NCBI GenBank assembly: GCA_043228905.1
Contig: JBHGNT010000013.1
Coordinates: 16,740,001 to 16,804,000, forward strand
Direction: 5' to 3'
Length of the DNA: 64,000 bases
Source: Azolla caroliniana
Lineage: Eukaryota; Plantae; Polypodiophyta
Below, piece by piece: positions 3,700 to 60,322 of the stretch. The notes beneath the pieces were generated by a model that was given only the letters and a program-made list of their open reading frames with translations, searched no databases and was not told the origin of the DNA. Each line of letters opens with the position of its first letter. Position 1 is the stretch's first letter. Both the position numbers and the translations under genes were made by a program.

Positions 3700-4490
3700 C
3701 GGAGAGACCGATTTCCGAAGATGCATTTGTAATTGTCATTTTGAACGTCGTTCGAAAAGCCGATTTTCGCATTGCATCGCTCGATTAATTGCCTCCGTGA
3801 CCCAAGCTTCGGTTCTTCAAGGAAAGTCAGGAGGAAGTCTTTGACATCATTATGTAGGTCATACCGAAACTGCTCCATCAATGCTTGGTCGTCCCATTGG
3901 CTATCAATTGCAAGTAGACGGAAATCCACAACATAAGCTGAGGCAACAATGTCCTTGACGCAGTCTTTGGATTTTATTGATTGTTGTACTAACACTATCG
4001 GTATCTCCAAGCCTCCTTTAAACTCGCTAATAAAATCCGTAAAATTATTTAGCAAAGGAGATCATTTTTCTAACAAAGGGGAGAACCATGTTAATGTTGT
4101 GCCACTAAATTATGTGACTATTCGCCCCACTCATGATGCATCAGTGGGATATCGAGAAGGATGCATTTGAATCACCAAGCGTACCTGACTAAGGAACCCT
4201 CTGAATTGTGATCGCGTTCCATCAAATTTGATGGGAAGACCAATCTTGGGTTCTTTAGGAATCCCTTGAGTACTCGGTCCTTGTTGTAACGACACGATAG
4301 TTGCTTGCAGTTGTAGCACTCGTAATGCCAACTCCCCGTGTTGTTGTTGCGTTTGCTGCTTTTCTAACGTGATTTTTTGAAGGTCCCCCAACAAACGTTG
4401 ATTTTCTTGTTCCAACGCTATGAACTTTTCCTTCAAGCATTGAAGCTCCGAAAAGACGGATTGGTATTCTTGTGTGCTTAAAATTGCCAT
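3700..4490 (-). pseudogene. Ty3/Gypsy (chromovirus-type) gag remnant
   Basis: Coiled-coil N-terminus, then KIGLPIKFDGTRSQFRGFLSQV; second piece ASAYVVDFRLLAIDSQWDDQALMEQFRYDL (major homology region-like); stops and frameshifts. Confidence 0.75.
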
Positions 4491-4632
4491 GTTAACACTA
4501 TAGGAAGGATCAATAAGAAGATTAATATTAGAGGAAGGGAGGATAAGAAGGAAAATTCGGTTCAAACCGTTAGGAGTTGTACTAGAGATTGAGAGGATTA
4601 GTACAAGAGTTACAATAAAAGAGGGAGACAAG

Positions 4633-6527
4633 TGTCACGGACACGCCAAGTACGGACTAAGACGGAGCACGGATGATGAGGCTACAACGGAGCGATGACG
4701 GAATGACACAAGATCATAAAGATTGAGATGAAAATTAAGGAGAGAAGATGGGCGAAACGAGAATACTAGATTGATATGTCCATGACTGGCGTTGTTCACC
4801 TTGAATTCCTTCAAGGTGAACTCAACTATTTATACTAAGTGGCATGCATACCTATTGCACGCATGTGATACAATAGAGCATGTAGGCAGTAGGTATGCAT
4901 GCATGTGCCAAGTGTTAATAATACAAGGGAGAAATTATGCACATGATGCTAGCTAAAACCTACAATGAGGATGTATATACATGATTATATGCTAGATGTG
5001 TGGTTAACACATAACACTCGATTATAACATGCTCATGTCAAGAGTTTGAATCTTGACATTATCCCCCCTCCAACGATGCCTTCCCAAATCGTTTGTCGGC
5101 TTAAGGGGATATTGTTGATGAAAATCTTAGATCACCTCCAAAGTATTTTGTAAATCCTAGACAAGGAATAACCCTTCCACAAGACGAGGTATTTAACACC
5201 AACAGGCATGAGCAACCATATGTGGTCCTCACCTAGAACTGGAACACAAATATCAACGGGTGTGAGCGACCATGTGCGGTCCTCATGGGGAGCATGAACA
5301 CCAAGGGGCATGAGTAACCATGTGGGGTCCTTGCCGGGAACTGGAACGGTCCTCGCTGAGAGTTGTAACACGAACACCAACGGGCGTGAGCAATCATGTT
5401 GTCCTCACCGAGAAATGGAACACGAACGAGTGAGCGACCATGTGGCCCTCACCGGGAACAGGAACATGAATGGGAGTAATCGACCATGTGTGGTCCTCAC
5501 CGGGAACTGGAACATGAACAACAACGGGCAAGAGCGACCATGTCGGTCTTCACTGGGATCTGGAACACGAACAATAGTTGGAATGAGCGGCCATGCAGGA
5601 GTGAGCGGCCATGTGCGGCCCTCACCGGGAACAAGAACACGAACGGGAGTGAGCGGCCATGTGCGGTCCTCACCGGAGACTGGAACACGAATGGGAGTGA
5701 GCGACCATGCGGCCCTCACCGGGCACAGGAACACGAACGGGAGTGAGCGACCATGTGCTGCCCTCACCAAGAACACGAACACGAACAGGAGTGAGCGGCC
5801 ATGTGCGGCCCTCACCGGGAACTCGAACACAAACACCAACGGAAGTGAGCGGCCTTGTGCGGCCCTCATTGGGAACTGGAACACGAACACCAACAGGAGT
5901 GAGCGGCCTTGTGTGGCCGTCACCGGGAACTAGAACATGAACACGAACGGGAAAGAAACTAAAAACTAGAGACAATGATGAGGAGAAACTAAAAAATAGA
6001 GACAATGAAGCGATGTTGATGATGGTACGGTGACGATGGTAACTCTAGAAGCAAGGGCAATGACGAAGACGGGTGAAGCTTCTAGTTGGAAGGTGAACAA
6101 ACTGTCATGGACACGCCAAGTACGGACTAAGACGGAGCACGGATGATGAGGCTACGACGGAGCGATGACGGAATGACACAAGATCATAAAGATTGAGATG
6201 AAAATTAAGGAGAGAAGATGGGCGAAACGAGAATACTAGATTGATATGTCCATGACTGGCGTTGTTCACCTTGAATTCCTTCAAGGTGAACTCAACTATT
6301 TATACTAAGTGGCATGCATACCTATTGCACGCATGTGATACAATAGAGCATGTAGGCAGTAGGTACGCATGCATGTGCCAAGTGTTAATAATACAAGGGA
6401 GAAATTATGCACATGATGCTAGCTAAAACCTACAATGAGGATGTATATACATGATTTATGCTAGATGTGTGGTTAACACATAACACTCGATTATAACATG
6501 CTCATGTCAAGAGTTTGAATCTTGACA
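4633..6527 (-). mobile_element. Non-autonomous chromovirus-derived LTR element (TRIM/LARD-like), LTRs 4633-5058 and 6103-6527
   Basis: Two ~425-bp LTRs (TGTCA...TGACA) with about 4 differences; PPT AGGGGGGATAA (5059-5069, minus); chromodomain remnant VKYLVLWKGY and FHQQYPLKP at about 5097-5197; no gag/pol; flanks ACAAG and ACAGT are not a clean TSD. Confidence 0.9.
5200..5950. repeat. Minisatellite with ~45-57-bp unit, about 15 copies, inside the mini-element
   Basis: Recurring GTGAGCG(A/G)CCATGTGCGGCCCTCACCGGGAACTGGAACACGAAC units. Confidence 0.9.
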
Positions 6528-6682
6528 ACAGTACTATTAGAGAGAGAGAGAGTGTGTGTGTGTGTGTGGAAGAGAGAAGTATGATAACAAAGAAGTATAT
6601 TATATGAAAAGAGTACAAGGATAGTTAAGAAGTTTAAGACTAGCATTGAACCGAATTGGTTCTAAATAGTGCCATATGCCTC

Positions 6683-6733
6683 TATTTATAGTATTATCAG
6701 GAGTATTCCTGAAGTTTCTAGAATGTTCTAGAG
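6683..6733 (-). promoter_or_regulatory. Heat-shock element array plus TATA box (probable LTR promoter remnant)
   Basis: TTCctGAAgtTTCtaGAAtgTTC at 6706-6728 gives five perfectly phased HSE units; TATAAATA on minus at 6683-6690. Confidence 0.6.
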
Positions 6734-7032
6734 TAATATAGAATATACATGAATTTTCTATAATAAAATAAAAAATAATATTTTTTATATTACAATATTA
6801 TCTAATGGTATGGCCTCAACTTGTGCAACATAAGATCATGGGTTCAATTCCTTTTGGGGCCATATCATGACAATATCCATGGATAAGATGTTATGTGTCA
6901 CTAGCTACAAGGTTGTTTACAATTTCTTAAAACATTCTAATTTCTAAAGTTAAGGTAGTTTGCATTGTTATTTAAATTTCTTCTCTTAAAATATTAATAG
7001 TTCAAGAATATGACAATTATTGTAGTTACTCC

Positions 7033-8239
7033 CATAGAACGTAATATTCGTGTTCGCGCAAGCATTCAAACGTTTGGAAATGAACACGTTTGAAAATGGA
7101 AAAATATGTACTCCTTTTCATTTCTTTTTTTCATTTATTGCTATTAATATTAAAAGTTTAGCTCACCTTAGTGGTAAGGAGTCATGCTATTGTTGTCTAT
7201 GTCTTGGGTTTGATTCCTAATATTCTGATCTCTCTCATTAATACCATGTCATAACAAAATTTTATGTTAGTGTTATATTAGTTTTTTTCTTTTGTCTATT
7301 TTCATATTATTAGAACTAAGCACAACCTAGTGGTAAGTTGTCGTGCTACTATTACTTGTATCTTGGGTTCAATTCTTTCTCGTATCCTCTTGTTAGTGCC
7401 ATGCTCCTTTTTCTTCTTCTTTTTTCTTTCTTTCTTATTAGAAATTAGCTCACCCTAGTGGTAAGTTGTTATGCTACTGTCTATGTCATGGCAAAATTTT
7501 ATGTTAGTATCATGTTCGTTTTTTTTCTTTCATTTTTTGTTATTAGAAATTAGGTCACCCTAGTGGTAAGTTGTTATGCTACTACTGCCTATGTCATGTT
7601 TTCTTCATATTCTCAAATATATGTTTTATGAGTTTTTTATCGTTTCTTTTTTCTTTTCTTTTTTTATTTCTTTGTTATTAGAAATTAGGTCACCCTAGTG
7701 GTAAGTTGTTATGCTACTACTGCCTATGTCATGTTTTCTTCATATTCTCAAATATATGTTTTATGAGTTTTTTATCGTTTCTTTTTTCTTTTCTTTTTTC
7801 ATTTCTTTGTTATTAGAAATTAGGTCACCCTAGTGGTAAGTTGTTATGCTACTACTACCTATGTCATGTTTTCTTCATATTCTCGAATATACGTTTTATG
7901 AGTTTTTGAACGTTTGATTATAATTTATAATGACATATTTTGATTCAATCTTTATAGTTCATACTCGTTTTTTTGTAAAGTTCTAAAGTGAGGATGATAG
8001 AGATGTCTTGATTCTTAAGAAGCATCCCAAAATTATGCATGTGATACAATGCAAATATTGCAACCATACTTATGTCGGTGGTTCTCAATGGATTAGAGTC
8101 CACTTATTGGGATTGAGAGTGAATCAATATATAATATAGACCATAGTCAATCCAATCCAACTTTGAGATAATTTACACACTCTTGATTGAATCATTCTCG
8201 AATGCAAATGCACGTATGATACGTATGGTTCATTCTATG
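7033..8239 (+). mobile_element. Non-autonomous hAT-like DNA transposon with a BED zinc-finger remnant
   Basis: Termini CATAGAAC...ATTCTATG; flanks GTTACTCC and GAACTTACTCC (imperfect 8-bp TSD); about 8050-8115 translates CKYCNHTYVGGSQWIRVHLLG. Confidence 0.55.
7155..7900 (+). repeat. Tandem array of six tRNA/SINE-head-like units (last three ~135 bp and near-identical)
   Basis: Each unit starts like TAGCTCACCCTAGTGGTAAG (A-box-like); the first two retain GGGTT(T/C)(G/A)ATTC (B-box-like); T-rich spacers. Confidence 0.7.
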
Positions 8240-9442: not shown

Positions 9443-11677
9443 TTAGCTTGTGTTCTGGTTAGTGTTACTAGAGCTGACAGATTGGGACGAGGTATAGTGG
9501 TCATTAGAATAACTAGAGAGAGAGGTCATAGACTTGTGTCCATCGAGAAACCCGGGGTGGTGAAGAACATAATCCCCAGGGTATGGGGGCCTTGACGGCC
9601 CAAGGGGCACAACCACTCCATGTTGTAGGGCATGGAGCACTTCTTGCATTTCGGGTCGTGCCTCGGGGATCGGATGGCAACACTTGAGTGCGACATGTAG
9701 GATGCACCTCCAAATTGTGGTGTCCACCTCCCCATCAATCATCTGCATCCGTGGATCCAACACGTCCATTAGCGCGCCTCTCTCGTGTTTCGACCACACC
9801 CAATTGAGAAGCATCCGTTCCTCGGTTACATCGAAACTTAGGTCGATGACACGGCGGCCGCACGCCACCTCTAGGGCGAGCACACCGTAGCTATAGACGT
9901 CCACTTTGTTGGTCGGCGTGCGTGTGAACACGACCTCAGGTGCGGTGTATCCGGGCGTGCCAGCGGCCGTCATGGTTTCGGTCATGCATTTGTCGTCCTT
10001 GAGGAGGCGTAGCAGCCCGAAGTCGCCCAGCTTGGCCACCAAGTCGGAAGTGAGCAGCACATTGGCGGCCTTCACATCCCGGTGCACCGCCCCGGCCCCA
10101 TGCAGATGGCTCAGAGCTTCTGCCACTCCCTTCAGGATCTCTACCCTACTCTCACTCCTCAAAACACCACCTGTGTTCTCCTTCCTGCTGCTGAACAGGT
10201 GGTCCGCCAAGCTTCCATTGCTCATGAATTGGTAGACCAGCATGGCCTCCCCTTTCTCGTAGCACCATCCTTTGAGCCCCACCAGGCGTGGGTGCTGCAG
10301 CTTGTTGATCATATTGATCTCCTTGAAGAACTCATCGTTCTTCCTCAGCCCCTCGCCGTTCAGCCGCTTCACCGCCACTTCTTCGTACACCATCGATTCA
10401 CCTTTCTTGCTAGTCTGCTGCGTTACTAATAATCTCCCCTTGTAGACGGTGCTGTATCCGCCGCGCCCCACTCTGGCCTTGTCATGGAAGCCCTGGGTAG
10501 CCTTCGATAGCTGCATGTATGTGTACCGTGGCATAGCCGCCGGGACGAGCACATTATTTGGAATGACTGCAAGCTCCATATTTTGATCACCATGAGGTGA
10601 ATGGCAGCATCTTTTCCGACAAGCTATTATGGCGGAGACTCCGATGATGATCATTGCGGCAAGAATGCTAGGAATGAGGATAGTCTCAATGTTGTGGACT
10701 GATTTAGAAATCGGTGGAGGACTGAGCATGGCAGGGCTATTGCTTGTGTTGCTTTCAAGCTGCAATGGAGGTGGAGGTGGAGGTGGTGGTGGTGGTGGTG
10801 GAGGTGCGGGGGTGTGAAGCGTGAAATTCCAGGAGAAGATAGCACAGCCTTGATAGCTTGCACCTGTGGTTGCTGACAAGCCAACAAACAGTGGTTGGGA
10901 ATGGAGGAAGACGGTGGAGAGGTTATAAGTCAAGTTGAGGAGGGGATCGGCAGGCGGAGATAATATGGTGTCGGATTTCATATTATCAGTGTTGACCATC
11001 CGGACCTCGACCGATGAATTGGCTGCCAAGTAATCCACCCACACCATGAAAGAAGAGTTCTGGTAGAGATCGAGATCCGGATGCGGTGTTAAACCGGTGG
11101 AGAAATCGACTGTGACATCTGAGATGAGGCTGTTGATGTCGATCCCGGCGTGGTTGCTGCTTGGATCATTGAGTAGAAGATTCTGGAAAGTGTCGAACTC
11201 GACGGCGAAGAGATGGAGTGATGGATCGATCACATTGTAGGTGTCATTGGAGGTGAGGCCCAGCATCATGCCATCGCTGCGGTCGGGAACGGTGTTATGA
11301 GGCGAGATAAAGAAGGCCAAACCATCTCCTCCATACCCTTCTCCCTTGGCAGGAGTAATGAGTCGGAACTGGAAGGAGGTGGTGAAGGAGGTGATGTTGG
11401 TCTCCCAGGGGAAGGAGACATCGTAGAGGAGCCAGCCCGTTTGTTCGTTCATCTGGCTCGATTGCTGTTGGTTAGGGTCGGGTGTGAGCCAAATGGTGCC
11501 ATCGCTTTTCAAAGAGGCATTGTTCCGTAGGACAAGGTTAGAGGGCAGAGTTTTGTCTGCTTGAGCATAGCTAAACCTAAACTCAGCTTCAACAATGGCG
11601 CCATGGAAGGCAGCAGCATTTACCATCAGGAGGAGGAGGAGGAGGAGGAGCAGCAGGATACTGAGTGTTGTAGCCAT
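9443..11677 (-). CDS. L-type lectin receptor-like kinase (LecRK-A), intronless
   Basis: Leu-rich signal peptide from MATTLS; legume lectin motifs GGDGLAF, FAVEFDT, NHAGIDINS; poly-Pro stalk; TM helix; RD kinase (GRGGYSTVYKG, VAVKRL, HRDVKAANVLL, DFG, GTPGYTAPE). Start taken at Met41 of the ORF. Confidence 0.95.
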   Translation of the reverse strand: MATTLSILLLLLLLLLLMVNAAAFHGAIVEAEFRFSYAQADKTLPSNLVLRNNASLKSDGTIWLTPDPNQQQSSQMNEQTGWLLYDVSFPWETNITSFTTSFQFRLITPAKGEGYGGDGLAFFISPHNTVPDRSDGMMLGLTSNDTYNVIDPSLHLFAVEFDTFQNLLLNDPSSNHAGIDINSLISDVTVDFSTGLTPHPDLDLYQNSSFMVWVDYLAANSSVEVRMVNTDNMKSDTILSPPADPLLNLTYNLSTVFLHSQPLFVGLSATTGASYQGCAIFSWNFTLHTPAPPPPPPPPPPPPPLQLESNTSNSPAMLSPPPISKSVHNIETILIPSILAAMIIIGVSAIIACRKRCCHSPHGDQNMELAVIPNNVLVPAAMPRYTYMQLSKATQGFHDKARVGRGGYSTVYKGRLLVTQQTSKKGESMVYEEVAVKRLNGEGLRKNDEFFKEINMINKLQHPRLVGLKGWCYEKGEAMLVYQFMSNGSLADHLFSSRKENTGGVLRSESRVEILKGVAEALSHLHGAGAVHRDVKAANVLLTSDLVAKLGDFGLLRLLKDDKCMTETMTAAGTPGYTAPEVVFTRTPTNKVDVYSYGVLALEVACGRRVIDLSFDVTEERMLLNWVWSKHERGALMDVLDPRMQMIDGEVDTTIWRCILHVALKCCHPIPEARPEMQEVLHALQHGVVVPLGPSRPPYPGDYVLHHPGFLDGHKSMTSLSSYSNDHYTSSQSVSSSNTNQNTS

Positions 11678-12383
11678 GGGATGGGCATAGGCAGTAAAAC
11701 ACTCAAAGAGGGATATATCCGCCTCGTCTCCTTTTACCTTTAAAAAAATACGTAAGAGTGTCGACCAAGTCAAGACCATTTCCATTTGCTTGACCAAGAG
11801 GTCTTCAATCCCCCACCACCTTGTGTTAGCACCACAAATGCTGTCACCAACTCATCTTGTTCATAGATAGTACACATAAATCAATTATTGGAGGTGTGCA
11901 AGTCGCATCCAATTTACAATCTATTCGTAGTGGAATCTTGTTGCCTTCACCAACATTATCCCTACATTCAACACCTTCCCTTCAGATATTGGTTTCGGAT
12001 TGGACTCATATTGGTCTTATATAATGTTCACCCAACTTAGATAAGGTTTAAGAAATTGAACTTAAGATTAGCAATTGGCGCGGTTCGGTTCGGTTTCAAG
12101 GCAAAGAAACCGAACTGAACCGAAACCGAACCCGTTTATTTAAAACAAAAACCAAATCAAACCGTTTATGAACTCTCAGTATTGAAACCAAACCATTTAA
12201 GAAATAGTTGGAACCAAACCATTTAAAACCAAACCGTTTAGGGAAAAGTTGAAACCAAAACAAACCATCTAATAAAAAATTTAAACCTAACCACTTAAAT
12301 TAAACTAACTAAACATCTAAATAAATAAAAATATGTAGAAACGAAGGTGCGGAAGTGTTAGATAACCGGCTTAGCCGAATAGC

Positions 12384-14637: not shown

Positions 14638-16647
14638 AAAATCTATTATCAACAACTCTGTAAAATTCTCTGTGCATACAACGTGCTCAACAACACTTTT
14701 TATACAAGTCCTAAGAGGATTGACAAAAGTACTGTGTACTTCAATGCTCACACGAGCGTCTGACAGTAACTACAAGACATTAACTACCTAGTAGTCTAGG
14801 CTGCTACTAGGCTTCCAGTTACTGCTTGATCCGGCTAACCAGCTCCCCAACTCACCGGCTCACCGATCTGGCTCAAGCTTATTCCGTCGATCCGGATCCG
14901 GTTGAGCTTGCCACTCAACACTCCCCCTCAAGATCAACTTGAGGTTGGATCATAGTGTCAGTCTCCATGGCAATCAGTCCTTCCACCCGGCTCCTTCTGG
15001 CGTCACTCTGCCTCGCTCGCTCTCCTCGTCCAGTTCAGTCCCATTTGCCACGACCCTTTCTGATTCTACGCACCTCGACCTCCTCGGTCGGCTTGTCTGC
15101 TCAACAGGCCTAATTCAGCACCCTTACTACTGTGACTTCGGCGCTTGCCGATTCGCCGATTCCTTCGTGTTGGCGTCGACTTTCGTTGCCTTCTCGTATC
15201 CGGTTCTTCCGAATCCGTCTGTTGAACTAAATCGGCTGTCTCCGATTCGCTCCAGATCTTGTCCGAATCGGTCGCTCCCGATTCGTCTTCCGGTTCCAGG
15301 CCCTTCACCACATTGGACCATGTCCGGGTCTTGGCCTTCTTCTTCCGGTCGGCTCTATCCTTCTTGACTCTACCGCCACCGCCTCTTGCTCCGACTTGTT
15401 TCCGATGTGTCAACTTCCTTTGTCGACTCAGCTCCTTTCTTCTTCTTGACTCTCCCTTTGTCGGTTCTTCCCTCACCGGCACAATCAGTTGTTTCTTTGC
15501 CTTTGCCCATTCCGGTGTCTTTGCCCGTTCTCCCCCTCAAGTGTGGCACGTCGAGATGCTGAACACCAAGGATTTCGATGAAGTGCTGCAACTTGTCCGA
15601 TCCGAGCGGTTTGGTGAAGATGTCGGCAACTTGCTGATCCGTATGAACATACCGAAATTCGACTTCACCGCTCAGGACACGCTCACGCACGAAGTGGTAG
15701 TGCACTTCTATGTGCTTTGTGCGAGCATTGAATACGGGGTTCTTGGCGAGCTGCATGATGCTTATGTTGTCGCAATAGATCAGGATCGGGGTCAGCACCT
15801 TGATCCGTAGATCTTGCAGCAGTCACCGAAGCCAAATGGCTTCACATGTGGCAATGGTAGTGCCCCGGTATTCAGCCTCAATGCTCGAAAGGGCCACTGT
15901 TGGCTGCTTTTTGCTGCTCCACACAACAGTCGTGCTACCAAGGGAAAACATATAGCCGGAGGTGGATCGGCGATCTGATGCATCAATGGCCCAATTGGCA
16001 TCGGTGTAGCCAACTAGCTCTTCGGTTATACCATGCCAGTATAACAGTCCCTGGTCCTTCATGGCGCTCACATATCGAAAAATTCGATGTGCGCATAGAA
16101 GGTGCTCCACAGTCGGCTTCTGCATATATTGGTTGATCATGCCGACCGGATAACTAATGTCGGGTCGGGTGATTGTCAAATATATAAGGCTTCCGACGAT
16201 TTGTTGGAACCGCTTCTCATCCGAGGACGGTCCGGAGTCGGGACAGAGATTCTAGTTCCGGTCTAGGGTTGTGGAGATCGGTCGGCATTCCATCATCTCG
16301 AACTTGTACAACATATTCAACACATAGTGTCTTTGTGAGAGCAATATGTTGTGGGGGGTTCGGATCACCTCGATCCCAAGGAAATAGTGAAGGTCCCCCA
16401 GGTCCTTCATCTCAAATGCGTCCGACAGTTGGGACTTGACTCGGCTTATTTCATCGAGTCCAAGTCCGGTGATGACTAGATCATCAACATACAGCAAGAT
16501 GCAAACCGGACTGTCCAGACCTTGCCGGATGAACAACAAAGAGTCGGACTTGGAGGCCGCAAACCCATCTTACGCAACCAGTGCCTGATCTTCACATTCC
16601 AAGCTCGGGGGGTTTGCTTTAGGCCATAAAGTGACTTCTTCAGCCGT

Positions 16648-17354
16648 TGTTGCGTTGCTACGCGCGTGCGTGGAGAAGGGCGGGACCACGGGGGTCTTGG
16701 ACTAAGGAGTAGAGGAGAAGGAATTGGACACGGAATGGAAGCTTTTCTCAAGAAGAAGAAGAATGAACAAGAGACTAGATCGAACAAGAGGAAGATGGAG
16801 ACAAGATGAACAACAAGATGTATTAAAACGAAATGAACGATTACAAAATGGTGGCCACATAGGCCGCACCAAACGACTACTCGAAACCCTAACCGACGAA
16901 GATGAAGATAAAGATAAAGAATCCCTAACCCTAACCCTAACGCTCGACCTATGTGGTATACCTCGCACACTCAAAATAGGCAACCCCCACAATGGTGCCT
17001 TTCCTCTCCTTTTATAGCACAAGGAGGGAAGACCGTTTACAAAAGCGAGACTAAAATATCCCCTTTCATTCAAAGGGGATATTTGCCTTGATTTGGGGAG
17101 GGTGAGATTGATGGCCCCTTAACTCCCACCTCCTCACAAACAACTAGGTACCTATGTACCGCATAGTACCTCTCTCTCTCTCTCTCGCGTGGATGTGCGC
17201 ACAAGACCACATCGCCTTTATACCTTAGGGATCTTATGGGGCATTTCTAGCACCATACCCTTTACCCCTATTATTATTACGTGTGCAACGTTGCACATCG
17301 CTCTTTGGCTCTCGTTGCTCGGGTTTCCCCTCGTGGACGAAAATCTTCACGACA
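16648..17354 (-). mobile_element. Gypsy solo LTR interrupting the Copia RT
   Basis: TGTTGCG...CACGACA; 4-bp TSD CCGT/CAGT; RT (VC.LKKSLYGLKQ) is split exactly here compared with 37830-37870. Confidence 0.85.
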
Positions 17355-20300
17355 CAGTCATACCACCAACTTGTTCATCTCCGACTGGAAACCGAGGGGT
17401 TGGGTCATAAAGACCTCTTCTTCAAGATCGCCTTGAAGAAATGCATTATTCACGTCCATCTAGTGTAGATGTGACCCCCTTGCCGCAACAACCGCCAGCA
17501 CCACACGAACCATTGTCATCTTCGATACCGGAGCAAAGGTCTCGTCGTAGTCGATCCGTGGGTCTACACGTATCCCTTCGCTACTAACCGGGCCTTGTAC
17601 CGGTTAACTAAACCGTTGGCATTGTACTTTACCTTGTACACCCACTTACATCCGATCAGTTTATAGTGTCGGGGAGGGTCAACTAGGTCCCATGTGTCAT
17701 TGGCAACAAGTGCCCGCATTTCCTCCTCCATAGCGGCACGCCAATTTGCGTCCTTTCCTGCTTCTGTGTAGCTCTCCGGCTCACACACTTCCACCACCTT
17801 GGTCATGTACGCATAGTGATGCGCCATGTACTCATTGTACCCATAACGCTACATAGGGTTCTTCTGGCGAGAAGACCAACGTAACTTGGTATTACTTGGT
17901 TTGGGGCCCTTCTTGGCCAGGTCGGACTTCGTTCCCGAAGATCCTCCTTCATCCTTTCCGGAGTCAGATTCGCTCTGATCCGACTCAACGTTGCCAGTTT
18001 CGTATTCCGGCATTTTCTTCTTCCCCTTCTCTTTGCGCGTGAACCGTCTCCTCGGTTCCTTGCACGGGGAGAGCATGGAAGAGTCTCCACTACTCACTGG
18101 TTCATCTTCCGACTGGTCTGTCTGACCCAGTCACTCGTTCGGCCCGCTCAACCGAAATGATTCCGAACTCACATCTAGAGTCTCGAACCCTTCGTCTTCT
18201 AACTGGACTGGTTCAGGCTCACTAGCCTCATCCTCCAGTATCAGGTCGGGGTCGGAAGTCGAAGCCGGTAAGGCATACCATGATGCCATCTCATCAAACT
18301 CAACATCTCGGCTTACTCGAACCTACTTTGTACGGGGGTTATAACACTTATACCCCTTCTGCTCATGTGAGTAATCCACCAGGATGCATTTCTCCGACTT
18401 TGCATCCAACTTCCTCCGCTTCTCATCCGGCACATGCACATATGCTCATGCGCGGACACCTTGTCACCGATCCGGTTTTGGATATAGACGGTCATCCGGA
18501 CCGCCTCAGCCCAGTAGAATTTGGGCATGCTCTTCTCCTCCAGCATCACCCTTGCCGCGTCGATAATCGACTGATTCTTCCTCTCAGCCACACCGTTTTG
18601 CTCCGGTGTGTATCTGCAGCTGAACTCTCTTTGAATTCCTTTTTGCTACAGATAATTGTTGAATTGGCCAGAAAAATATTCTTTTCCGCCATCCGACCGC
18701 AAGCACTTGATCTTCCTTTCCGTTTCCCGTTCAACCAGGCTTTGCAGGTTCCGGAAACACTCGAAGACTTCGCTCTTCTACTCAATGAGGTAGATCCATG
18801 TGTGCCGGCTGTAGTTGTCAATGAAGGAGACGAAATATTGACTCCCGCCAAGACTAACGTTCTGTGACGGTCCCCATACATCCGAATGAATAAGGTCGAG
18901 CTTGTTACGGCTATGGTTTTGTTCGGTGGAGAATTGAAGCCAGTGTTGCTTCTCGAGTTAGCAAACTTCACATATTTGCAACTCCCGGCCACTGAACTTC
19001 GGCAAACCAAAAACAACTTGTTTCGTTTGCAGGTCTTGAAGCTCCGATAATTGACGTGGCCAATCCGCTTATGCTAGAGATCAATATCCGATTCAATTTT
19101 CTGTCCTTTGGCGATCAAAGCGGTGCAGACATTATTGGTGTCAAGGATGAACATCCTCCCATCTCTACGCCTTACCGGATCCGGATCAGTCCGAATCGGC
19201 GCGCTTCTTCAACCACTCGCTTTCTTTGTGGCCCTTTTTACCACAGTACCAGCATTTCGTGTCGGCCGTTGCTTATTGGCCTCCGGCGCCGTCTTGACTC
19301 CCCCTACTTGTGGAGGGTCCGGAACTGTTGTCGGCATTTCTCTATGCCTTCAGTCCTACTCTTTCCGGCCGCTACCATTGCGAGCTGACCCGCCTCATCC
19401 ACCATGCCCACGGGGCCAAATCCGCCTCCGTGTATAGCATTTGGCTGTCGGTCAGTGCACTTGTTGACGCATCGGCGTGGTTCTCCTCTACAAGGAGCAT
19501 ACCATCATTCGGAACGCTCTAAACTTAGACGCTAGGCCCCCAAGAAAAATCTGCACCATCTCATCTTCCTCTACAGTGACGTTGATAGAGGCAAGTGAGT
19601 CACAAATCTCTTTGATTCGGGCCGTGTAATCGGCTACCGACATGTCCTTCTGTCGGACATTGCTCAACTCCTATCGGAGTTGCAGCTTCCGGGCCGTAGT
19701 GCTTGCCGTGAAAACCTTCTTTAGGTTTCCCCAAGCTTCTGTTGGCGTCTTGGCATCTCGGACATGGCTCAGCAGCTGGTCTCCGGCACTAGACGCAAAG
19801 CAGTACATCACTCTGCTTGCTGCTTGTTCCCACACTAGGAAGTCCTTGTGTGCCGCATCAGGTGTTGTGTCGTTAGCTCCGTCGACATAGCTCCAGTAAC
19901 CATGCCCAAGTAGGTACTGGTGCATCTTGTATGACCAAGATGCATAGTTGGATCTGTCTATCTTCTCCACTAGGAGCGAGCTAGCCATTTCTCTGTCCAT
20001 CACTTCTCTTTCTGTTCTTACCGGGTCTTATGGTTTGTCTTCAGATGCTGATATCGGCTGCAGAGGTTCTCAACCCTCGCGCTCTGATACCATGTAGAAA
20101 CGAAGGTGCAGAAGCATTAGACAACTGGCTTAGCCGGATAGCAAGAGAGAGAGAGAGAGATTAACACACAAAAGGTACACATGAGAGACAGAGAAAGAGC
20201 AGAACAACTTAAATCTATTATCAACAACTCTGTAAAATTCTCTGTGCATACAACATGCTCAACAACACTATTTATACAAGTCCTAAGAGGACTGACAAAA

Positions 20301-21489
20301 GTACAATGTACTTCAATGCTCACACGAGCGTCTGACACTAACTATGAGACATTAACTACCTAGTAGTCTCGGCTGCTACTAGGCTTCCGGTTACTGCTTG
20401 ATCCGGCTAATTGGCTCCCCAACTCACCGGCTCACTTGCTCATTGGCTCGCTTGCTCACCGGCTCACCGATCCAGCTCACCCTTCCGGATGCCGATCCAG
20501 CTCAGGCTTATTCAGCCGATCCGGATCCGGTTGAGCTTGCCACTCAACAATATACATTAAATTAAATAAGCATTAAAGTTAAATTTATTAAATCAATAAA
20601 AAACCATTAATTAAACAATTAAATCAATAAAGTATTAAGGTTAAACAAAAGTTAGCCAAAAACCTATAAACCTATAAACCCAAGTTTTAGAACCAAACCA
20701 AACCAAAACCGAACTGTTTATCGAAAATCCAAACCAAACCAAACCATTAAAAATTTTTGGAACCAATAAACCATTAAACAATGGTTTAACGGTGTCGCGT
20801 TTTTTACGCGCGTGCGTGGAGAAACGAGGCAGGACCACCGGGGTCTTGAACCTAAGAGCAGGTGATAGGAGGGGAAAGAGAAAGAGAGAGACAAACGGTT
20901 ACGTATGAGCAAAGAAACACAGGGACACGGCCCGTCAACGCAGAAGACACGAATGAACACAGAGACAGAGAGACACGAATGTTTGTATATTAACAAGTGA
21001 CACAAAAACAACAGAGCACACGAGTGGTTACAACCGAACAGGCCGGCGAACAGATGTCGATGCCTACTCGTTTGCGCACGGAAAGGGGATAGGATGGAGG
21101 TGCTGCCAGAAGCACACGGGCGTTCCTCGAAGCAGCGTGAGCCTCCCGAAAACCTGCAGAGAAGAGCAATAGAGAACAAGCAAAGGAGAAGCGTTCGGTT
21201 ACGGTCCGACAGCACTTCGTCCTCCTCAATGCGCGATCCCTTCTCCTTGCGTCTCCCTCTCCTTTATAGTGTCAGGAAGGGAGCCGTCTCCCTCATTTAC
21301 TTCATACCTACCGAATCTAACTACCCAGGATATACCTATGTACCTAGTTCCCTATAATATACATTAAGGGCGCGCACGCGTGAAGAGCTGGTTCACGCGC
21401 GCTATGCACCGATTGCGCTAAGGGACGGTTTCCTTCACGACATCCGCCCCCACCTAACCGCGCATCCACCGGTACGCGCCAAAATTGGG

Positions 21490-25591: not shown

Positions 25592-28500
25592 CACAAAAGA
25601 CTTTCTATTCCATAGAAACAATAATACAACCAACCTTACAAAAAGGTTACAAGGTCACTATATATAGTGACCGACTTAGGGCAACTACCATTTATGCTAA
25701 TTACACAAATGGCCCAAACTTGAGCTATACAAAGGGGATAGTGTGAATACGTCCATTATACACTTGTATTCGACACTCCCCCGTAATGGGCGTATACATG
25801 GGTTATCTAAGATTACAGGTATAAACCTAGGTTCTCGGACATATCAGTTTTGTTCGAGTCGGCAGGGTCCGAAGGCAGAAGACCAGACTGGTCGGGTCGG
25901 AAGAGTTGAAGCCGATCATTAAGGAACTGATGTCGGTTGTCCGAAACCATCCTGCGCTGTGTCCGGCTCTAACCGGACTGGTTTGTCGTTACGCCCATCT
26001 GATGCCGAAGGGACCGAAAGCGGTCTGCCGAAAGACACTTGGTCATTCCATCTGCGACATTGTCGGTTGTGGATATTTTCTCTAGACCGATTTTCCCTGA
26101 AATGACGCAGTCCCGAACGAAGTGATATCGAACGTCGATATGTTTGGAGGCGTTGTGGTGAACCGGATTTCTCGACAAGGCAACAGCACCTTGACTGTCG
26201 CTATAGACAACTAGAGTCGAGTCGTGGTCGACTTGCCGAAACGTGTGCGCCAGCCGGCCGAGCCACAAAGCTTCTTTTGCAGCGTCGGACGCAGCTACAT
26301 ATTCTGCTTCGGTCGTTGAGGTCGCTGTGCACTCCTGAAGTTTCGACTTCCACGAAATTGCTCCATTGCCGAATTTGAAGCAGTATCCGGTTGTTGATTT
26401 CCGACTGTCTATACAGCCGGCGAAGTCCGAGTCGGTGTAACCGACTACGCCTGAGGTTGAGTTCGGACCGAAAAGAATGCCGTGATCTTTTGTGCCAGCC
26501 AGATATTTGAACACATGCTTGACTGCGTTCCAATGCGATCGGCCAAGATTGTGCATAAATCTGCTAACGACTCCTACGGCATGAGAAATATCAGGCCGTG
26601 TCGCGATCATCAGGTACATAAGGGAGCCGACTGCCGGTGCATACGGTACCGACTTCATATCTTCCCCCTCCGGACCGGATGTCGGGCAGTCTCGCTGAGA
26701 GAGCCGAAGATTCATGGGGAGCGGGGTTGAAGCAGATTTGGCTGATTGCATGTTGAAGCGGTCCAAGACACGTCCAATATAGTCGGTCTGAGACAAAAAA
26801 AGATGTCGTTTATCGCGATGCCGACTAATCTTCATGCCAAGGATGTGTCGTGCCGGACCGAGGTCCTTCATGGCAAACTTCAACCGCAGTTGCCGAATGA
26901 GATCGGCAAGTTCGCCCGCGTGGCGTCCAGAAATTAGCATGTCGTCCACGTAAATGATGAGGAAGATGGGTGATCCATCTTGAGCTGTGTTGGTAAAAAG
27001 ACAATGGTCCTCATCACTTTTTGAGAAGCCGATCGATTGGATGAAGTCGTCGAACTTCTTGTACCATTGTCGCGGTGCCTGTTTGAGGCCGTATAGACTC
27101 TTCCTGAGTCGGCAGACTAGATGTTCTTGGCCAGTTGCCACGAAGCCTTTTGGCTGCTCCATATAAATTTCCTCTTCAAGATCACCATGGAGGAAGGTTG
27201 TTTTGACATCTAGCTGAATCAGCTCCAAGTTGTCGGCTGCCACTACGCCGAGTAGAAAACGAAGGGTTGTCATTTTCACCACTGGTGAAAAAATCTCGTC
27301 GAAGTCGACGCCATATTCTTGTCGGAAGCCCTTCGCAACTAATCTGGCCTTGTACTTTGGGGTGGTCGAATCAGACGTCTCTTTTAGTCGATAAACCCAC
27401 TTGCAAGGAAGAGCACGTCGATTCTTAGGTAGTTCGACCAGATCCCAAGTCTTGTTTGCCCGAATGGAGTGCATTTCCGACTCCATCGCCAGATGCCAGG
27501 TGGCTGAATCGACAGATGTCGATGCTTCTTCGTAAGACGTCGGTTCGCCGGCGTCGGTGAAGAAAATTCCAGGAGAATACCTCTTCGGAGGTTGCGACAG
27601 TCTCTCGGATCGTCGAGGTATGATTGGACTGGTCGCATCGGGTATCGAGGTCGGATGGTCCGAAAGCGAATCATTCGGCTGTGCCGAGTCAGAGTTGTCC
27701 GAGTCGGTAGTGTAAGGTTCAGCTACCCGTGAAGCTGACCGTGTGTTAAGAGCGGGGCCTTCTTGAAGGGTCGGCACATCGGAAAATGTTACCCTTCGGA
27801 CTTCAATCGGTTTTTCGACTGATGGATTCATAGCCGACTCGTTGAACACAACGTCCGAACTTCGAACGATTTGTCTGCGTTCGGGGTCCCAGAGTCGGTA
27901 TCCCATTTCGCCGTCTGATCCATATCCAAGGAAAATGCATTTCCTGGACCGAGGTGCAAGTTTTCGGTGATCATCTTTCGGAATAAGGGCGTACGCCTCG
28001 CATCCGAAGATCCTCAGCTTGTCGTAATTCGGCTTACTGCCGATCCATAGTTCCTGAGGAATTTGAAGTCCTAGAGGTCTACTTGGCGACATATTGATTA
28101 TGTGTACTGCCGTGAGTAGAGCCTCTGCCCAGAAGCCATCCGACAGTCCGGAGTGTTGGAGCATGGAAACTATCCGTTCTTGGATTGTCCGATTCATTCG
28201 TTCTGCAATCCCGTTTTGCTCCGAACTGTGTGGTGCCGTAAATTCACGTCGGATGCCGCATTGTCGGCAGAATTTGACGAATTCTTCGGATTTGAACTCT
28301 CCCCCATTGTCAGTCCGAAAGCATTTCAGTTTTCGGTCAGTTTGATTTTCTACCATAGCGAGCCAATCGGAGAAGATCGAGAAGACACGATCTTTGGTGC
28401 GAATTGGATAAGCCCACACCTTTCGAGTCGAATCGTCAATAAAACTGACGAAGTAAGAGGCACTGCCAAGAGACTGATGCGGCATTGGGCCACAGACGTC

Positions 28501-31002
28501 CGAGTGGACTAGATCGAGAGGTCTCGTTTCTCTTGGTGCTGATGTCGGGTGTGATGCGGCTGCTTGTTTGCCATACTGGCAATGTTCGCAGAATTGATGG
28601 TCGGAGAAGGAGAGTTTAGGGATGTATCCGGCTCTAGATAGGTGCGTAATGCCGGCCTTGCTGAGGTGTCCTAATCTTCTGTGCCATAGTGATGACACAG
28701 GAATATCCACCAAAAACAGGTTACCCTCCCTGAGCGTAACATGTAACGGATACAGTGAGTGTATCTTGGGTCCTCTAGCAAGCAGGAGGTTCCCCCTGTG
28801 GAGTGTCCACCCTCCCGAAGAGAAACCGGCACGAATGCCGTCTTCATCTAGTTGTCCGACTGAGATCAATGGCCTTGAGAGCTCGGGTACATGTCGGACA
28901 TTGTGAAGTACAAGTGTAGAGCCACCTGCAAGGTTGAGCTCTACTGTGCCGATTCCAATGATGTCACAGTGTTGTGAGTTGCCGACTCGAACTGAGTCGG
29001 AGTGACGGATCGTATATTGCCGAAATTGGGATCGATGAGGAGTCACGTGAAATGACGCGCCCGAATCTAAGAGCCATGTGCTCGATTCTTCAGTCGTGAG
29101 CAGAACTTCTGATCCGACTGGATTTTCGATTGATAGTATATTCGGGTCGTTTGGTAGCACATCAGCTGAGAAGCTGACGTAATTGATCTCCTCATGCCGG
29201 CCACTCTTCTTGTCTGATTTCTGAGACTTGTCGTTCTTGTTCTTGAGTGCGCGGCAGTCGGCTTTGATGTGTCCGGGTTTCTTGCAATAGTTGCAGATTC
29301 GATTATCCCGTGACTGGCTCCGTCTTCGCTGATTGTTCGGCTGCCGTGAGGAATCTCTTCCTCGTATGTTCGATCGGTCTGTCGAACCTTGTACTACGTA
29401 GGCGTCGTCTGTTGAGTCTTTGGCGAAAGACTTTCTCCGAGCTGCTTCGGTCAGGATTGCGCTCGTGACTTCGGAGTATTTAACAGTCGTGGTTGACGCG
29501 TTGCACACAGTTGTGACGAAAGTTTCCCATGATGAGGGAAGGCTGCTCATGAGTATCATTGCTCTGAGTTCATCCTCGATTGCCGTCCCCTGAGATGAGA
29601 TTTGGGAGCTTATGCTTTCGTACTCATTTAGATGTGCTTGAACCGAATCAGATTCTTTCATCCGCAAGTTGTAGAGGCGCCGAATAAGAAACATCTTCGT
29701 TGCAGCGACCTTCTTTTCGTAGGTGTCCGACAGTGTTTTCCACAGTTCGAATGCTGTCGTACACGATTGCACCGTAAAGTATACCGATTCCGATAGGTGC
29801 ATCCGAATCGTGGCGCGGACGATTCTGTCCAGCTTCTGCCACTCAATTGGTTTGTATCCTTCTGGAGGTTCTTCATTTTCGATGGGATCGATTTGCCCCT
29901 TGACTATGAGATAGTCCTGCATTTGCTCCTTCCAGAAGTTGAAGTTCGATCCATCGAACTTTCGTAGACTCATTTCTGACGAGCCGGATGTTGATGCCAT
30001 CAAATTTGGTTTCGGTTGACGAAGCTCGGTTCGGAGTTGACTACGAACCTTGTTGGAGTGCAGCCGGTTGGCTCACCCGATATCGTTCTAGTTGGATTTG
30101 GACCCGAGTCGGTTCGGCTTCGGATATATGTGTTGTTGAACTTGCTCGAATTGACTCCGGTAACTTGAGGGACAGAACCGACTGGTCTTCCCGAATGTTG
30201 CCAAGTCGGAGTGAGCCCGGTTCGCTTCCGAATATATATGCCAAATACCGATTATTGAAACCGATTGTCTGGACCGATTCTGCTTCGGGTGACTGCAGCG
30301 ACGAGAGAGACAGATCCAACTGATCCTCCCGAATGTCGATCAGCCGGATGAAGCACGAATTGGGGTTGTTGTCTTGAGACCGATCTGCACCGAGTGGTTA
30401 CAATGAGCGGCGAGCAGCGTTTAATGACCTCTTCGGATGCCGTTTAACCGAGTGGAGCACGATCGTGTCAATGTTGCACAAGGGGATTTCACCTCGAGCG
30501 GTTACGATCACAAGGAACAGAGTACAACCGGCTGGCTTACTCCAAGCGAAGATGATCTAACGCGATGAGATGCAAGCCTCGTTTTTCTTCTTCTTCTCTC
30601 TTCTTCGAATGACGCAGGAAACCGAATGCTGTGCAGGCTGAGACGACGGCCGACAGCGGATTGAAGGACCGAATACTGTGCAGGCTCTGATACCAGATGT
30701 TGTAAACAAAGGCCGTCAATGCGGAAGATCAAGAAGCATTCGATTCTTGTTGAGTACCTGCGTATGACAGTTTCTGAGATAGTGCACAGAGAGAGAGAGA
30801 GAGAGAGAGGGAGGGAGGCACAAAAGACTTTCTATTCCATAGAAACAATAATACAACCAACCTTACAAAAAGGTTACAAGGTCACTATATATAGTGACCG
30901 ACTTAGGGCAACTACCATTTATGCTAATTACACAAATGGCCCAAACTTGAGCTATACAAAGGGGATAGTGTGAATACGTCCATTATACACTTGTATTCGA
31001 CA
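25467..31002 (-). mobile_element. Intact young Ty1/Copia element (Tork/Tnt1-like); LTRs 25467-25775 and 30698-31002
   Basis: LTRs identical outside an AG microsatellite; PBS-Met 30684-30695; PPT from 25776; TSD CTCTG/CTCCG. Confidence 0.96.
25969..30000 (-). CDS. Copia Gag-Pol polyprotein, uninterrupted
   Basis: CNYCKKPGHIKADC; WLLDSGAS protease; HSDVCGP, RTDNGGEF, QNGIAER integrase; YVDD RT; YTDSD..EAEY..DSQ..ADGMTK RNase H. Confidence 0.95.
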   Translation of the reverse strand: MASTSGSSEMSLRKFDGSNFNFWKEQMQDYLIVKGQIDPIENEEPPEGYKPIEWQKLDRIVRATIRMHLSESVYFTVQSCTTAFELWKTLSDTYEKKVAATKMFLIRRLYNLRMKESDSVQAHLNEYESISSQISSQGTAIEDELRAMILMSSLPSSWETFVTTVCNASTTTVKYSEVTSAILTEAARRKSFAKDSTDDAYVVQGSTDRSNIRGRDSSRQPNNQRRRSQSRDNRICNYCKKPGHIKADCRALKNKNDKSQKSDKKSGRHEEINYVSFSADVLPNDPNILSIENPVGSEVLLTTEESSTWLLDSGASFHVTPHRSQFRQYTIRHSDSVRVGNSQHCDIIGIGTVELNLAGGSTLVLHNVRHVPELSRPLISVGQLDEDGIRAGFSSGGWTLHRGNLLLARGPKIHSLYPLHVTLREGNLFLVDIPVSSLWHRRLGHLSKAGITHLSRAGYIPKLSFSDHQFCEHCQYGKQAAASHPTSAPRETRPLDLVHSDVCGPMPHQSLGSASYFVSFIDDSTRKVWAYPIRTKDRVFSIFSDWLAMVENQTDRKLKCFRTDNGGEFKSEEFVKFCRQCGIRREFTAPHSSEQNGIAERMNRTIQERIVSMLQHSGLSDGFWAEALLTAVHIINMSPSRPLGLQIPQELWIGSKPNYDKLRIFGCEAYALIPKDDHRKLAPRSRKCIFLGYGSDGEMGYRLWDPERRQIVRSSDVVFNESAMNPSVEKPIEVRRVTFSDVPTLQEGPALNTRSASRVAEPYTTDSDNSDSAQPNDSLSDHPTSIPDATSPIIPRRSERLSQPPKRYSPGIFFTDAGEPTSYEEASTSVDSATWHLAMESEMHSIRANKTWDLVELPKNRRALPCKWVYRLKETSDSTTPKYKARLVAKGFRQEYGVDFDEIFSPVVKMTTLRFLLGVVAADNLELIQLDVKTTFLHGDLEEEIYMEQPKGFVATGQEHLVCRLRKSLYGLKQAPRQWYKKFDDFIQSIGFSKSDEDHCLFTNTAQDGSPIFLIIYVDDMLISGRHAGELADLIRQLRLKFAMKDLGPARHILGMKISRHRDKRHLFLSQTDYIGRVLDRFNMQSAKSASTPLPMNLRLSQRDCPTSGPEGEDMKSVPYAPAVGSLMYLMIATRPDISHAVGVVSRFMHNLGRSHWNAVKHVFKYLAGTKDHGILFGPNSTSGVVGYTDSDFAGCIDSRKSTTGYCFKFGNGAISWKSKLQECTATSTTEAEYVAASDAAKEALWLGRLAHTFRQVDHDSTLVVYSDSQGAVALSRNPVHHNASKHIDVRYHFVRDCVISGKIGLEKISTTDNVADGMTKCLSADRFRSLRHQMGVTTNQSG

Positions 31003-34000: not shown

Positions 34001-34156
34001 ACCATTTCAATGGGGTGTTCATTGTTGGGCCACAAGTGATAAGAGCAATCAACTTTGCATGCTTTTTCCAAAACAATTTTGGGAGTCTATGTATCACACT
34101 TTGATACAATGTTCTTCCTTTTGATCACATTCGACTATGCTTTCCACACATCTTTG

Positions 34157-39997: not shown

Positions 39998-40045
39998 CTT
40001 TGACCAAACCCAATCCGTGAACGAATTTCTCTCACTCACAATGTG

Positions 40046-40660
40046 CACACTCAATTGCAACATTCATTGGTGAAGTTCTTGAACATTGAGAGTTACTATT
40101 CACTTTCACATCTATGACGTGAAATGTAATATGTTTGGTCTCATGGGTCATATTTGACCTCTGTAGAAGCTAATAAAATCTATCTATCTATCTATCTATC
40201 TCACTCACACTCAATTGCAACATTCATTAGTGAAGTTCTTGAACATTGAGAGTTGCTACTCACTTTTACATCTATGACGTGAAATGTAATATTTTTGGTC
40301 TCATGGGTCATATTTGACCTCTGTAGAAGATAATAAAATCTATCTATCTATCTATCTCACTCACACTCAATTGCAACATTCATTGGTGAAGTTCTTGAAC
40401 ATTGAGAGTTGCTACTCACTTTTACATCTATGACGTGAAATGTAATATTTTTGGTCTCATGGGTCATATTTGACCTCTGTAGAAGATAATAAAATCTATC
40501 TATCTATCTTTCTCACTCACACTCAATTGCAACATTTATTGGTGAAGTTCTTGAACATTGAGAGTTGCTACTCACTTTTACATCTATGACGTGAAATGTA
40601 ATATTTTTGGTCTCATGGGTCATATATTGACCTCTTTAGAAGATAATAAAATATATCTAT
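40046..40660. repeat. Tandem repeat, four copies of ~156-160 bp
   Basis: Units start CACACTCAATTGCAACATT at about 40046, 40206, 40362 and 40518, each ending in (CTAT)n. Confidence 0.92.
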
Positions 40661-47377: not shown

Positions 47378-47427
47378 TGGTCTGCAGCGGTAGCCACAGA
47401 GAGACAGGGAAATGGACAGAGACGGAT

Positions 47428-47600
47428 AGAAAGAAAGAAAGAAAGAGATATTAATGTCTTCTACGATCCTGCTCTTAGTAGGAGTTCTTACCAATTAAGC
47501 TAAACCTTTACAAGCTCCTACTCTTAGTAAGAGTTCTTACCAATTAAGCTAAATCTATACAAGCTCCTACTCTTAGTAGGAGTTCTTACCAATTAAATAA
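47428..47600 (-). mobile_element. Rearranged tRNA-derived SINE: three ~49-bp head repeats plus tail
   Basis: On minus, three copies of TAGCTTAATTGGTAAGAACTCCTACTAAGAGTAGGAG, then TAGAAGACATTAATATCTCTTTCTTTC; absent from the equivalent position of LecRK-D. Confidence 0.65.
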
Positions 47601-55903: not shown

Positions 55904-55916
55904 TGGGCAGCAGGAC

Positions 55917-56027
55917 GAAAGAAGGAAAGAAATATTAACGTCTTCTAAGACCACATTAATTAGCCCAAGGGAATTTGAACCCTTAACGAATTAAAAATAG
56001 GAGAAGCTCTTACCAATTAAGATAAAC
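55917..56027 (-). mobile_element. tRNA-derived SINE just upstream of the LecRK-C start codon
   Basis: On minus: A-box-like TATCTTAATTGGTAAGAGC, B-box GGGTTCAAATTCCC, then tail GGTCTTAGAAGACGTTAATATTTCTTTCC. Confidence 0.7.
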
Positions 56028-60276: not shown

Positions 60277-60322
60277 TGGGCAGCAGCGCCAGCCTCGTAC
60301 AGAGAGAGACAGGGAGAGGTAC

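What the first reader, a model, noticed from the sequence alone, without database searches (positions are those of the whole stretch)
6090..6304. Complete Tf1-type self-priming geometry in a 1.9-kb non-coding mini-retrotransposon
Seen: there is no tRNA PBS. The PBS position on the sense (minus) strand reads TTGTTCACCTT (6090-6100), exactly complementary to AAGGTGAACAA inside the LTR (6262-6272), which begins 32 nt after the start of TATAAATA (6297-6304), where a TSS is expected. Known: S. pombe Tf1 primes reverse transcription with the first 11 nt of its own RNA, and related chromoviruses share this. Inference: this is a recently mobile non-autonomous self-priming element, whereas described TRIMs are typically tRNA-primed.
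Basis: partly seen in the sequence, partly recalled or inferred. Interest (0 to 1): 0.75.

Follow-up and report, generated by a model that had tools for sequence, protein, structure and literature searches.

The report
Self-priming mini-retrotransposon of chromovirus origin
A 1.9-kb plant jumping element that has lost its genes carries, where a tRNA primer site should be, an 11-base site that pairs with the predicted start of its own RNA and changes in step with it in relatives, so it likely primes its own copying, as the yeast element Tf1 does.

Summary
The geometry is real. The 11-mer two bases after the 5' LTR is the exact complement of an LTR 11-mer starting 32 nt after TATAAATA (3 of 20,000 shuffles). 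The element is a gene-less derivative of a Tf1/sushi-group (Tcn1-like) chromovirus. It keeps a broken chromodomain tail and shares its flanking motifs with gag-pol relatives. There, 22 of 27 independently anchored junctions pair 12/12, in several co-varying sequences. A sister family shows matching four-base changes at both sites, though not on one contig, and one contig mixes the types. Corrections: only two of Tf1's three duplexes are seen; the target-site duplication is imperfect; neither start site nor autonomous partner was found. Self-priming is predicted for 83% of plant Tcn1 elements. I found no gene-less case in print, but this scan noted similar minis on other DNA. Solid, moderately novel.

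The parts
4633..6527 (-). Non-autonomous LTR retrotransposon, 1895 nt, TGTCA...TGACA termini
6103..6527 (-). 5' LTR (425 nt)
4633..5058 (-). 3' LTR (426 nt); 3 substitutions and 1 indel against the 5' LTR
6297..6304 (-). TATA box (TATAAATA); its start lies 31-33 nt before the primer in relatives as well
6262..6272 (-). Predicted self-primer, the first 11 nt of the RNA; predicted start site 6272 (C|A)
   Evidence: start site inferred, not mapped
6264..6291 (.). Perfect 12-bp palindrome across the U3/R border; covers 9 of the 11 primer bases (second copy 4794-4821)
   Evidence: -18.6 kcal/mol, z -5.6, 0 of 200 shuffles
6246..6260 (-). R arm of the second helix (2 + 11 bp), directly after the primer
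   Evidence: duplex -21.6 kcal/mol, z -5.3
6101..6114 (-). U5 end plus GT spacer: partner arm of the second helix, stacked on the PBS helix
6090..6100 (-). Primer-binding site TTGTTCACCTT, 2 nt after the LTR
5191..5952 (-). Internal tandem array, about 15 units, mostly 44-54 nt; unit number varies between contigs; no Pfam or Rfam match; folding no better than shuffles
5059..5197 (-). Broken remnant of the integrase chromodomain tail (one frameshift, one stop), running into the PPT
   Evidence: 63-66% identity over 38-44 aa to P0146
5059..5071 (-). Polypurine tract, same type as in the gag-pol relatives
4568..6872 (-). 5' LTR of the host chromovirus, interrupted by the mini element; own TATA 6683-6690 and own 12-nt primer 6646-6657
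4554..4565 (-). Host element's PBS, a perfect 12-nt complement of 6646-6657
3724..4490 (-). Host element's truncated, broken Ty3-type gag; no pol or 3' LTR found in the window

Best explanation
This is a 1.9-kb gene-less derivative of a chromodomain Ty3/gypsy element, likely of the Tf1/sushi (Tcn1-like) group, whose primer-binding site is complementary to an 11-mer in its own LTR, and which likely primes reverse transcription with the first 11 bases of its own RNA using enzymes likely borrowed from an autonomous relative. Shown: the two LTRs, the PPT, the 11-nt complement, the TATA spacing, the chromodomain remnant, the shared flanking motifs, and co-variation in relatives. Predicted: transcription starts at 6272(-); bases 1-11 pair with the PBS; a second helix (R with the U5 end) stacks on it, with a one-base bulge at position 12. 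Inferred from Tf1: RNase H of a partner's RT cuts after base 11 and frees the primer. Also inferred: because plus-strand synthesis would copy the primer into the new PBS, a change in the primer is carried into the PBS, which would explain block-wise co-variation. More speculative: the U3/R hairpin, which exists only at the RNA's 3' end, hides the second copy of the primer.
For: Chance match 3 of 20,000. Fold z -4.4; P(primer:PBS) 0.99-1.0 at a central base in the modelled transcripts. Gag relatives, with both sides anchored by motifs (3 of 12 pairs fixed by the anchors): 22 of 27 non-identical junctions pair 12/12 and 4 pair 11/12. Nine distinct perfect combinations were seen; the mini's primer pairs 11/11 with its own PBS and 3-6/11 with the others. 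All have Y|A at the predicted start. The mini shares CAA-C[AG]C[CT]AGTC and TGACA-GT-TTG with them. Sister family in runs X1 and X3: PBS TTGAATCCCTT and LTR AAGGGATTCAA (loose ends at 6093, 6098, 6264). The RT-RH tree groups the remnant's best match with fungal and vertebrate rows, apart from seed-plant and algal rows, 100/100. Tf1 mechanism: PMC7175516 passages. Tcn1 83% self-priming: PMC6317226 supplement row.
Against: No start site or primer RNA was observed. The third (leader-side) pretzel duplex is unsupported: z +0.7 in the mini, -2.6 to +1.5 across 27 junctions. One low-depth contig (X2 record 9, depth 2.9) carries the sister PBS with no change listed at the primer. In a PBS-only census 20 of 34 junctions reached 11/12; L039, L040 and L056 had 450 nt upstream and no match. 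Three relatives carry one wobble or mismatch (L037, L084, L101). The TSD is imperfect. No LTR match to the mini among 78 gag loci. The mini's duplex is 11 bp, the relatives' 12.
Confidence: 0.85

Rival explanations
1. The geometry is an inherited relic: this copy or family no longer self-primes and spread by recombination or DNA-level duplication.
For: Imperfect TSD despite 99% LTR identity; no partner found; insertion site lies beside a microsatellite in another LTR.
Against: Primer, PBS, TATA and PPT are intact while the coding region is gone. Contigs leave the LTR ends into other flanks. Array-bearing pieces occur under three organism labels. The host LTR continues on both sides of the insertion (L062).
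Confidence: 0.08
2. The PBS binds a host tRNA half or other small RNA, and the LTR match is secondary, for example a structural U5-type stem.
For: Half-tRNA priming exists in plant Ty1/copia lineages; host tRNAs could not be checked.
Against: Nine different PBS sequences each match their own LTR; no TGG; the match begins at a fixed distance from TATA; half-tRNA use is reported there only for copia lineages.
Confidence: 0.05
3. Chance complementarity, or a by-product of the palindrome in the LTR.
For: The LTR 11-mer overlaps a 12-bp palindrome, so the LTR already holds 9 nt identical to the PBS.
Against: 3 of 20,000 shuffles; the same geometry in relatives that lack the palindrome (L045, L057, L087); the neighbouring host element has its own different pair.
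Confidence: 0.02

Closest known systems
Tf1/Tf2 of Schizosaccharomyces pombe; Tj1, Tosmo, Tcry (Tf1/sushi group)
   Same: 11-nt PBS complementary to the predicted RNA 5' end, no tRNA site, a PBS-adjacent duplex with LTR sequence downstream of the primer (passages: PMC7175516, PMC4600332, bioRxiv 2022.12.06.519325).
   Different: Gene-less. Only two of the three 'pretzel' duplexes are detected, predicted as one stacked stem. It has an extra U3/R hairpin. Nothing is shown by experiment.
Plant Tcn1 chromoviruses (REXdb, PMC6317226; PMC2864245)
   Same: Chromodomain remnant; relatives have overlapping gag and pol frames with PR-RT-RH-INT-CHD; the clade is 83% self-priming by prediction; LTR of similar size to SM-Tcn1's 440 bp.
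   Different: 1.9 kb against 5.5-9.4 kb; no 5-bp TSD in this copy. Those papers report the clade from mosses and lycophytes, while this host may be fern-allied (weak). No named Tcn1 reference was in my tree.
TRIM / long-TRIM / LARD non-autonomous LTR elements
   Same: Two LTRs, PBS position, PPT, no intact gene.
   Different: Above the <1 kb or <1.5 kb TRIM limits and below LARD size (>4 kb). The 115 sugar-beet families all have tRNA-type PBS motifs, but that screen took its PBS motifs from a tRNA database (PMC13570524 passages).
TAR (Houba/Osr1) Ty1/copia elements
   Same: Predicted self-priming in plants.
   Different: Other superfamily; the remnant here is a Ty3 chromodomain.

Membership tests
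Tf1/sushi group (self-priming chromoviruses) | PBS complementary to LTR sequence instead of a tRNA 3' end | tested here: met
Tf1/sushi group (self-priming chromoviruses) | The complementary stretch is the RNA's 5' end (start site mapped) | not testable with these tools
   Only contigs were available. Indirect: TATA +31-33 and Y|A.
Tf1/sushi group (self-priming chromoviruses) | Duplex between the U5 end (5' of the PBS) and LTR sequence downstream of the primer | tested here: met
   (prediction; z -5.3 in the mini, short and not significant alone in most relatives)
Tf1/sushi group (self-priming chromoviruses) | Third duplex between the leader (3' of the PBS) and LTR sequence (pretzel) | tested here: inconclusive
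   no signal above shuffles (z +0.7). A short pseudoknot helix could escape this test, and the primary Tf1 papers were not held.
Tf1/sushi group (self-priming chromoviruses) | RNase H cleavage after the primer | not testable with these tools
   needs biochemistry
Tf1/sushi group (self-priming chromoviruses) | RT-RH groups with fungal and vertebrate chromoviruses | tested here: met
   by proxy: the mini has no RT. Its remnant's best matches (P0146, P0140, P0160, P0130) and the host lineage fall on the fungal/vertebrate side, 100/100; 43 rows, 1 dropped as short; midpoint root; long branches flagged.
Tcn1 clade (REXdb) | Phylogenetic placement with Tcn1 references | not tested
   no named Tcn1 sequence was among my hits
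Tcn1 clade (REXdb) | Chromodomain at the integrase end | tested here: met
   PF00385 in L042 and L081; broken remnant in the mini; aromatic-cage residues read by eye only
Tcn1 clade (REXdb) | 5-bp target-site duplication | tested here: not met
   ACAAG against ACAGT; the empty site could not be resolved in relatives
TRIM (strict) | Length under 1-1.5 kb | tested here: not met
   1895 nt; limits
TRIM (strict) | tRNA-complementary PBS | tested here: not met
   no TGG after the LTR; half-tRNA match not testable, as no host tRNA set was held
Non-autonomous LTR retrotransposon (broad) | Two LTRs, PBS, PPT, no intact gag or pol | tested here: met
Non-autonomous LTR retrotransposon (broad) | Autonomous partner with shared LTR | tested here: inconclusive
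   none among 78 gag loci of the host lineage; scans with P0146 gave nothing in viral contigs and one distant locus in genome contigs; the host genome is not held

The most novel reading that the evidence does not exclude
Self-priming elements carry two copies of the primer, one at each end of the RNA. This lineage may solve the conflict with a U3-encoded anti-primer hairpin that forms only at the 3' end, hides the decoy copy and is rebuilt when the primer sequence changes. Together with a two-helix stem in place of the Tf1 pretzel, this would be an undescribed control layer of self-priming, carried by a family of gene-less elements that tRNA-based TRIM screens miss.
Probability: 0.3. Interest if true: 0.65.

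Novelty: new variant of a known kind. Interest (0 to 1): 0.42.

Why it matters
It extends self-priming from autonomous elements to gene-less hitch-hikers, where RNase H would have to cut the primer of another element's RNA. It also points to a class that TRIM screens built on tRNA PBS motifs would miss. The nine natural primer/PBS combinations with fixed flanking motifs are comparative support for self-priming in plants, where the papers I read only predict it; for SM-Tcn1 it was once reported as not evident. If the U3 hairpin is functional, it explains how a self-primer avoids competition from its own 3' copy. None of this changes the known mechanism class.

Tried and rejected
The window's genome is not held. 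No RNA holder was listed; contigs cannot show start sites, so expression is not addressed. A pattern scan of viral contigs gave 36 loci, none similar to the element by blastn: chance. Gag and pol scans of viral contigs were empty. The genome-contig scan gave one distant locus, L115, in which no junction was scored. The stop-to-stop frames of 124-211 aa across the tandem array have no credible Pfam hit, so a hidden protein was rejected. Array units fold at z -1.5 to +0.6, and the whole array folds worse than all 20 shuffles, so a conserved-structure reading is unsupported. Rfam gave one sub-threshold hit only. The first hairpin test (column D) trimmed the stem and was replaced. The TSD could not be resolved from relatives. 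Four primary Tf1 papers or reviews were not held. Literature searches for a non-autonomous self-priming element found none, and the Tcn1-in-fern searches found no report. Subscription papers and most REXdb per-element tables were not seen, so absence from print is not established.

Full report
Observation. The element spans 4633-6527 with sense on the minus strand. Its LTRs are 426 and 425 nt and differ by 3 substitutions and 1 indel; a polypurine tract lies at 5059-5071. Two bases after the 5' LTR comes TTGTTCACCTT (6100-6090), the exact complement of AAGGTGAACAA (6272-6262), which starts 32 nt after the start of TATAAATA. No TGG lies in the first 24 nt of the leader. Three of 20,000 dinucleotide shuffles of the LTR gave an 11-nt complement to any of six leader offsets. 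The 5-nt flanks are ACAAG and ACAGT, not a clean duplication.

Structure. Folding 6272-6030 pairs bases 1-11 with the PBS, bulges base 12, and stacks a second helix between R (bases 13-14 and 17-27) and the U5 end (z -4.4; 0 of 200 shuffles). A bioRxiv paper (2022.12.06.519325, passages) states that Tf1 needs three duplexes, one on each side of the PBS besides the central one. The leader-side duplex gave no signal: z +0.7 in the mini and -2.6 to +1.5 over 27 junctions. 'Complete' is therefore not shown.

Ancestry. The element has no intact gene. Six-frame comparison with 162 fetched gag/pol proteins found a remnant at about 5197-5059: the end of an integrase chromodomain, broken by a frameshift and a stop, 63-66% identical over 38-44 aa to P0146. 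An RT-RH tree of 43 rows (one short row dropped; 44 of the 120 listed hits chosen) puts P0146's clade and the host element's lineage with fungal and vertebrate rows, apart from seed-plant and algal rows at 100/100; it is midpoint-rooted, has long branches and holds no named Tcn1 row. Relatives L042 and L081 have overlapping gag and pol frames ending in PF00385. REXdb lists Tcn1 as 83% self-priming, 60% overlapping gag/pol and 100% chromodomain (PMC6317226, passages and one supplement row). The host is a land plant. The best named full-length matches of a nearby lectin kinase are fern proteins at only 37-38%, so 'fern-allied' is a weak inference.

Nesting. The mini sits in the 5' LTR (6872-4568) of a truncated gag-bearing element. 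That element has its own, different pair: 6657-6646 against 4565-4554, 12/12, TATA +33.

Co-variation in gag-pol relatives. An alignment of 25 gag homologues fetched 78 loci (best 80 of 147 kept). I anchored the R motif and the LTR-end motif separately; this fixes 3 of the 12 pairs. It gave 33 junction pairs (27 non-identical) from 29 of 79 loci plus the two window elements; the other loci lacked the upstream LTR or a motif. Of the 27, 22 pair 12/12, 4 pair 11/12 (one is the mini, with an 11-bp duplex), and 1 pairs 8/12 (a second site in L045, downstream of a perfect one). Nine distinct perfect combinations exist, with changes on both sides at positions 4-11; the mini's primer pairs only 3-6 of 11 with the other PBSs. 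TATA lies 31-33 nt upstream, and all 24 scored starts are Y|A (the plant initiator rule is recalled). Against: a looser PBS-only census reached 11/12 in 20 of 34; most misses had short upstream sequence, but L039, L040 and L056 had 450 nt and no match. These contigs are collapsed assemblies of repeats, and related families are not independent. None of the 78 loci shares the mini's LTR.

Co-variation in the mini's own family. Logan contigs of four runs under three organism labels cover the element (4 of 7 listed runs laid). They include pieces of the internal array and LTR ends that run into other flanks. In X1 and X3, loose ends show a sister type: PBS TTGAATCCCTT (4 and 2 contigs) and LTR 11-mer AAGGGATTCAA (13 and 1 contigs), changed at the same four columns. 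They are not on one contig. X3 record 12 carries the mini's own pair with a much shorter R-U5 loop. X2 record 9 (depth 2.9) carries the sister PBS with no listed change at the primer; it may be an assembly chimera or a recombinant, and it counts against. Tf1 cDNA often retains a PBS copy at its 3' end, and a cited title says that the self-primer is not removed (PMC11042837, passages). I infer that primer changes are copied into the PBS, which would produce such block changes.

U3/R hairpin. A perfect 12-bp palindrome at 6264-6291 covers 9 primer bases (z -5.6). U3 precedes R only at the RNA's 3' end, so the hairpin can only hide the 3' primer copy. In equilibrium models of the transcript the 5' primer holds the PBS (P 0.99-1.0). 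With the U3 arm forced open, the 3' copy takes the PBS at P 0.79, 1.0 and 0.97 for 3' R lengths of 30, 60 and 100 nt, but only 0.03 for 14 nt. These models ignore distance and co-transcriptional folding. U3-primer pairing beat shuffles (p<=0.05) in 12 of 24 junctions and is absent in several, among them L045, L057, L063, L087 and L101. By eye, the X1 sister type rebuilds a stem of about 9 bp around its changed primer, while the X3 one keeps about 4 bp. The hairpin is common, not universal; a mutational origin is not excluded.

Comparison and novelty. Tf1 self-priming is established (PMC7175516, PMC4600332, PMC5341516: passages). TRIMs are described as tRNA-primed (PMC6934838, PMC13570524, PMC10886601: passages), and the sugar-beet screen used tRNA-derived PBS motifs. 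Searches found no non-autonomous self-priming element; subscription journals are not covered. PMC2864245 (passages and section 6) found Tcn1 only in Selaginella among vascular plants and saw no priming signal in SM-Tcn1. PMC9916801 and PMC13469084 (passages) added nothing on Tcn1 in ferns. Two earlier notes of this scan describe similar minis on other DNA (unchecked).

Verdict. A real, well-supported self-priming signature in a gene-less derivative of a clade where self-priming is expected. It is a new variant of a known kind, interest 0.42. The masking hairpin is the one lead that could raise it.

Noticed in passing
window 3724-6872 (-): The host chromovirus fragment has its own perfect 12-nt primer/PBS pair; one self-priming element is nested in the U5 of another, beside a microsatellite. 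It ends within gag.
   Followed up: yes
window 5191-5952: Internal tandem array of about 15 units of 44-54 nt, also seen in contigs under three organism labels with variable unit number; origin and role unexplained.
   Followed up: partly
window 9443-11851, 45227-47494, 53723-55990, 58081-60468 (-): Four uninterrupted lectin receptor-kinase reading frames in tandem orientation; best named matches of the first only 34-38% identical.
   Followed up: partly
window 25969-30072 (-): Uninterrupted 1367-aa Ty1/copia-like polyprotein frame, nested in a Ty3-like element whose LTRs lie near 20819 and 32731 (domain order read by eye).
   Followed up: no
window 34156-39902 and 14678-20369: Two related copia-like elements in opposite orientation, about 84% alike; the right-hand one has 99% identical LTRs and a long frame.
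   Followed up: no
L113, L114: More distant gag families with further primer/PBS variants and a 10-bp R/U5 helix of different sequence from the mini's.
   Followed up: partly
L115 (genome contigs): A 3.8-kb chromovirus gag-pol contig filed in a cyanobacterial genome bin, likely eukaryotic contamination.
   Followed up: no
window 7123-7915 and 40022-40649: Tandem arrays of about 135-nt and 156-nt units.
   Followed up: no
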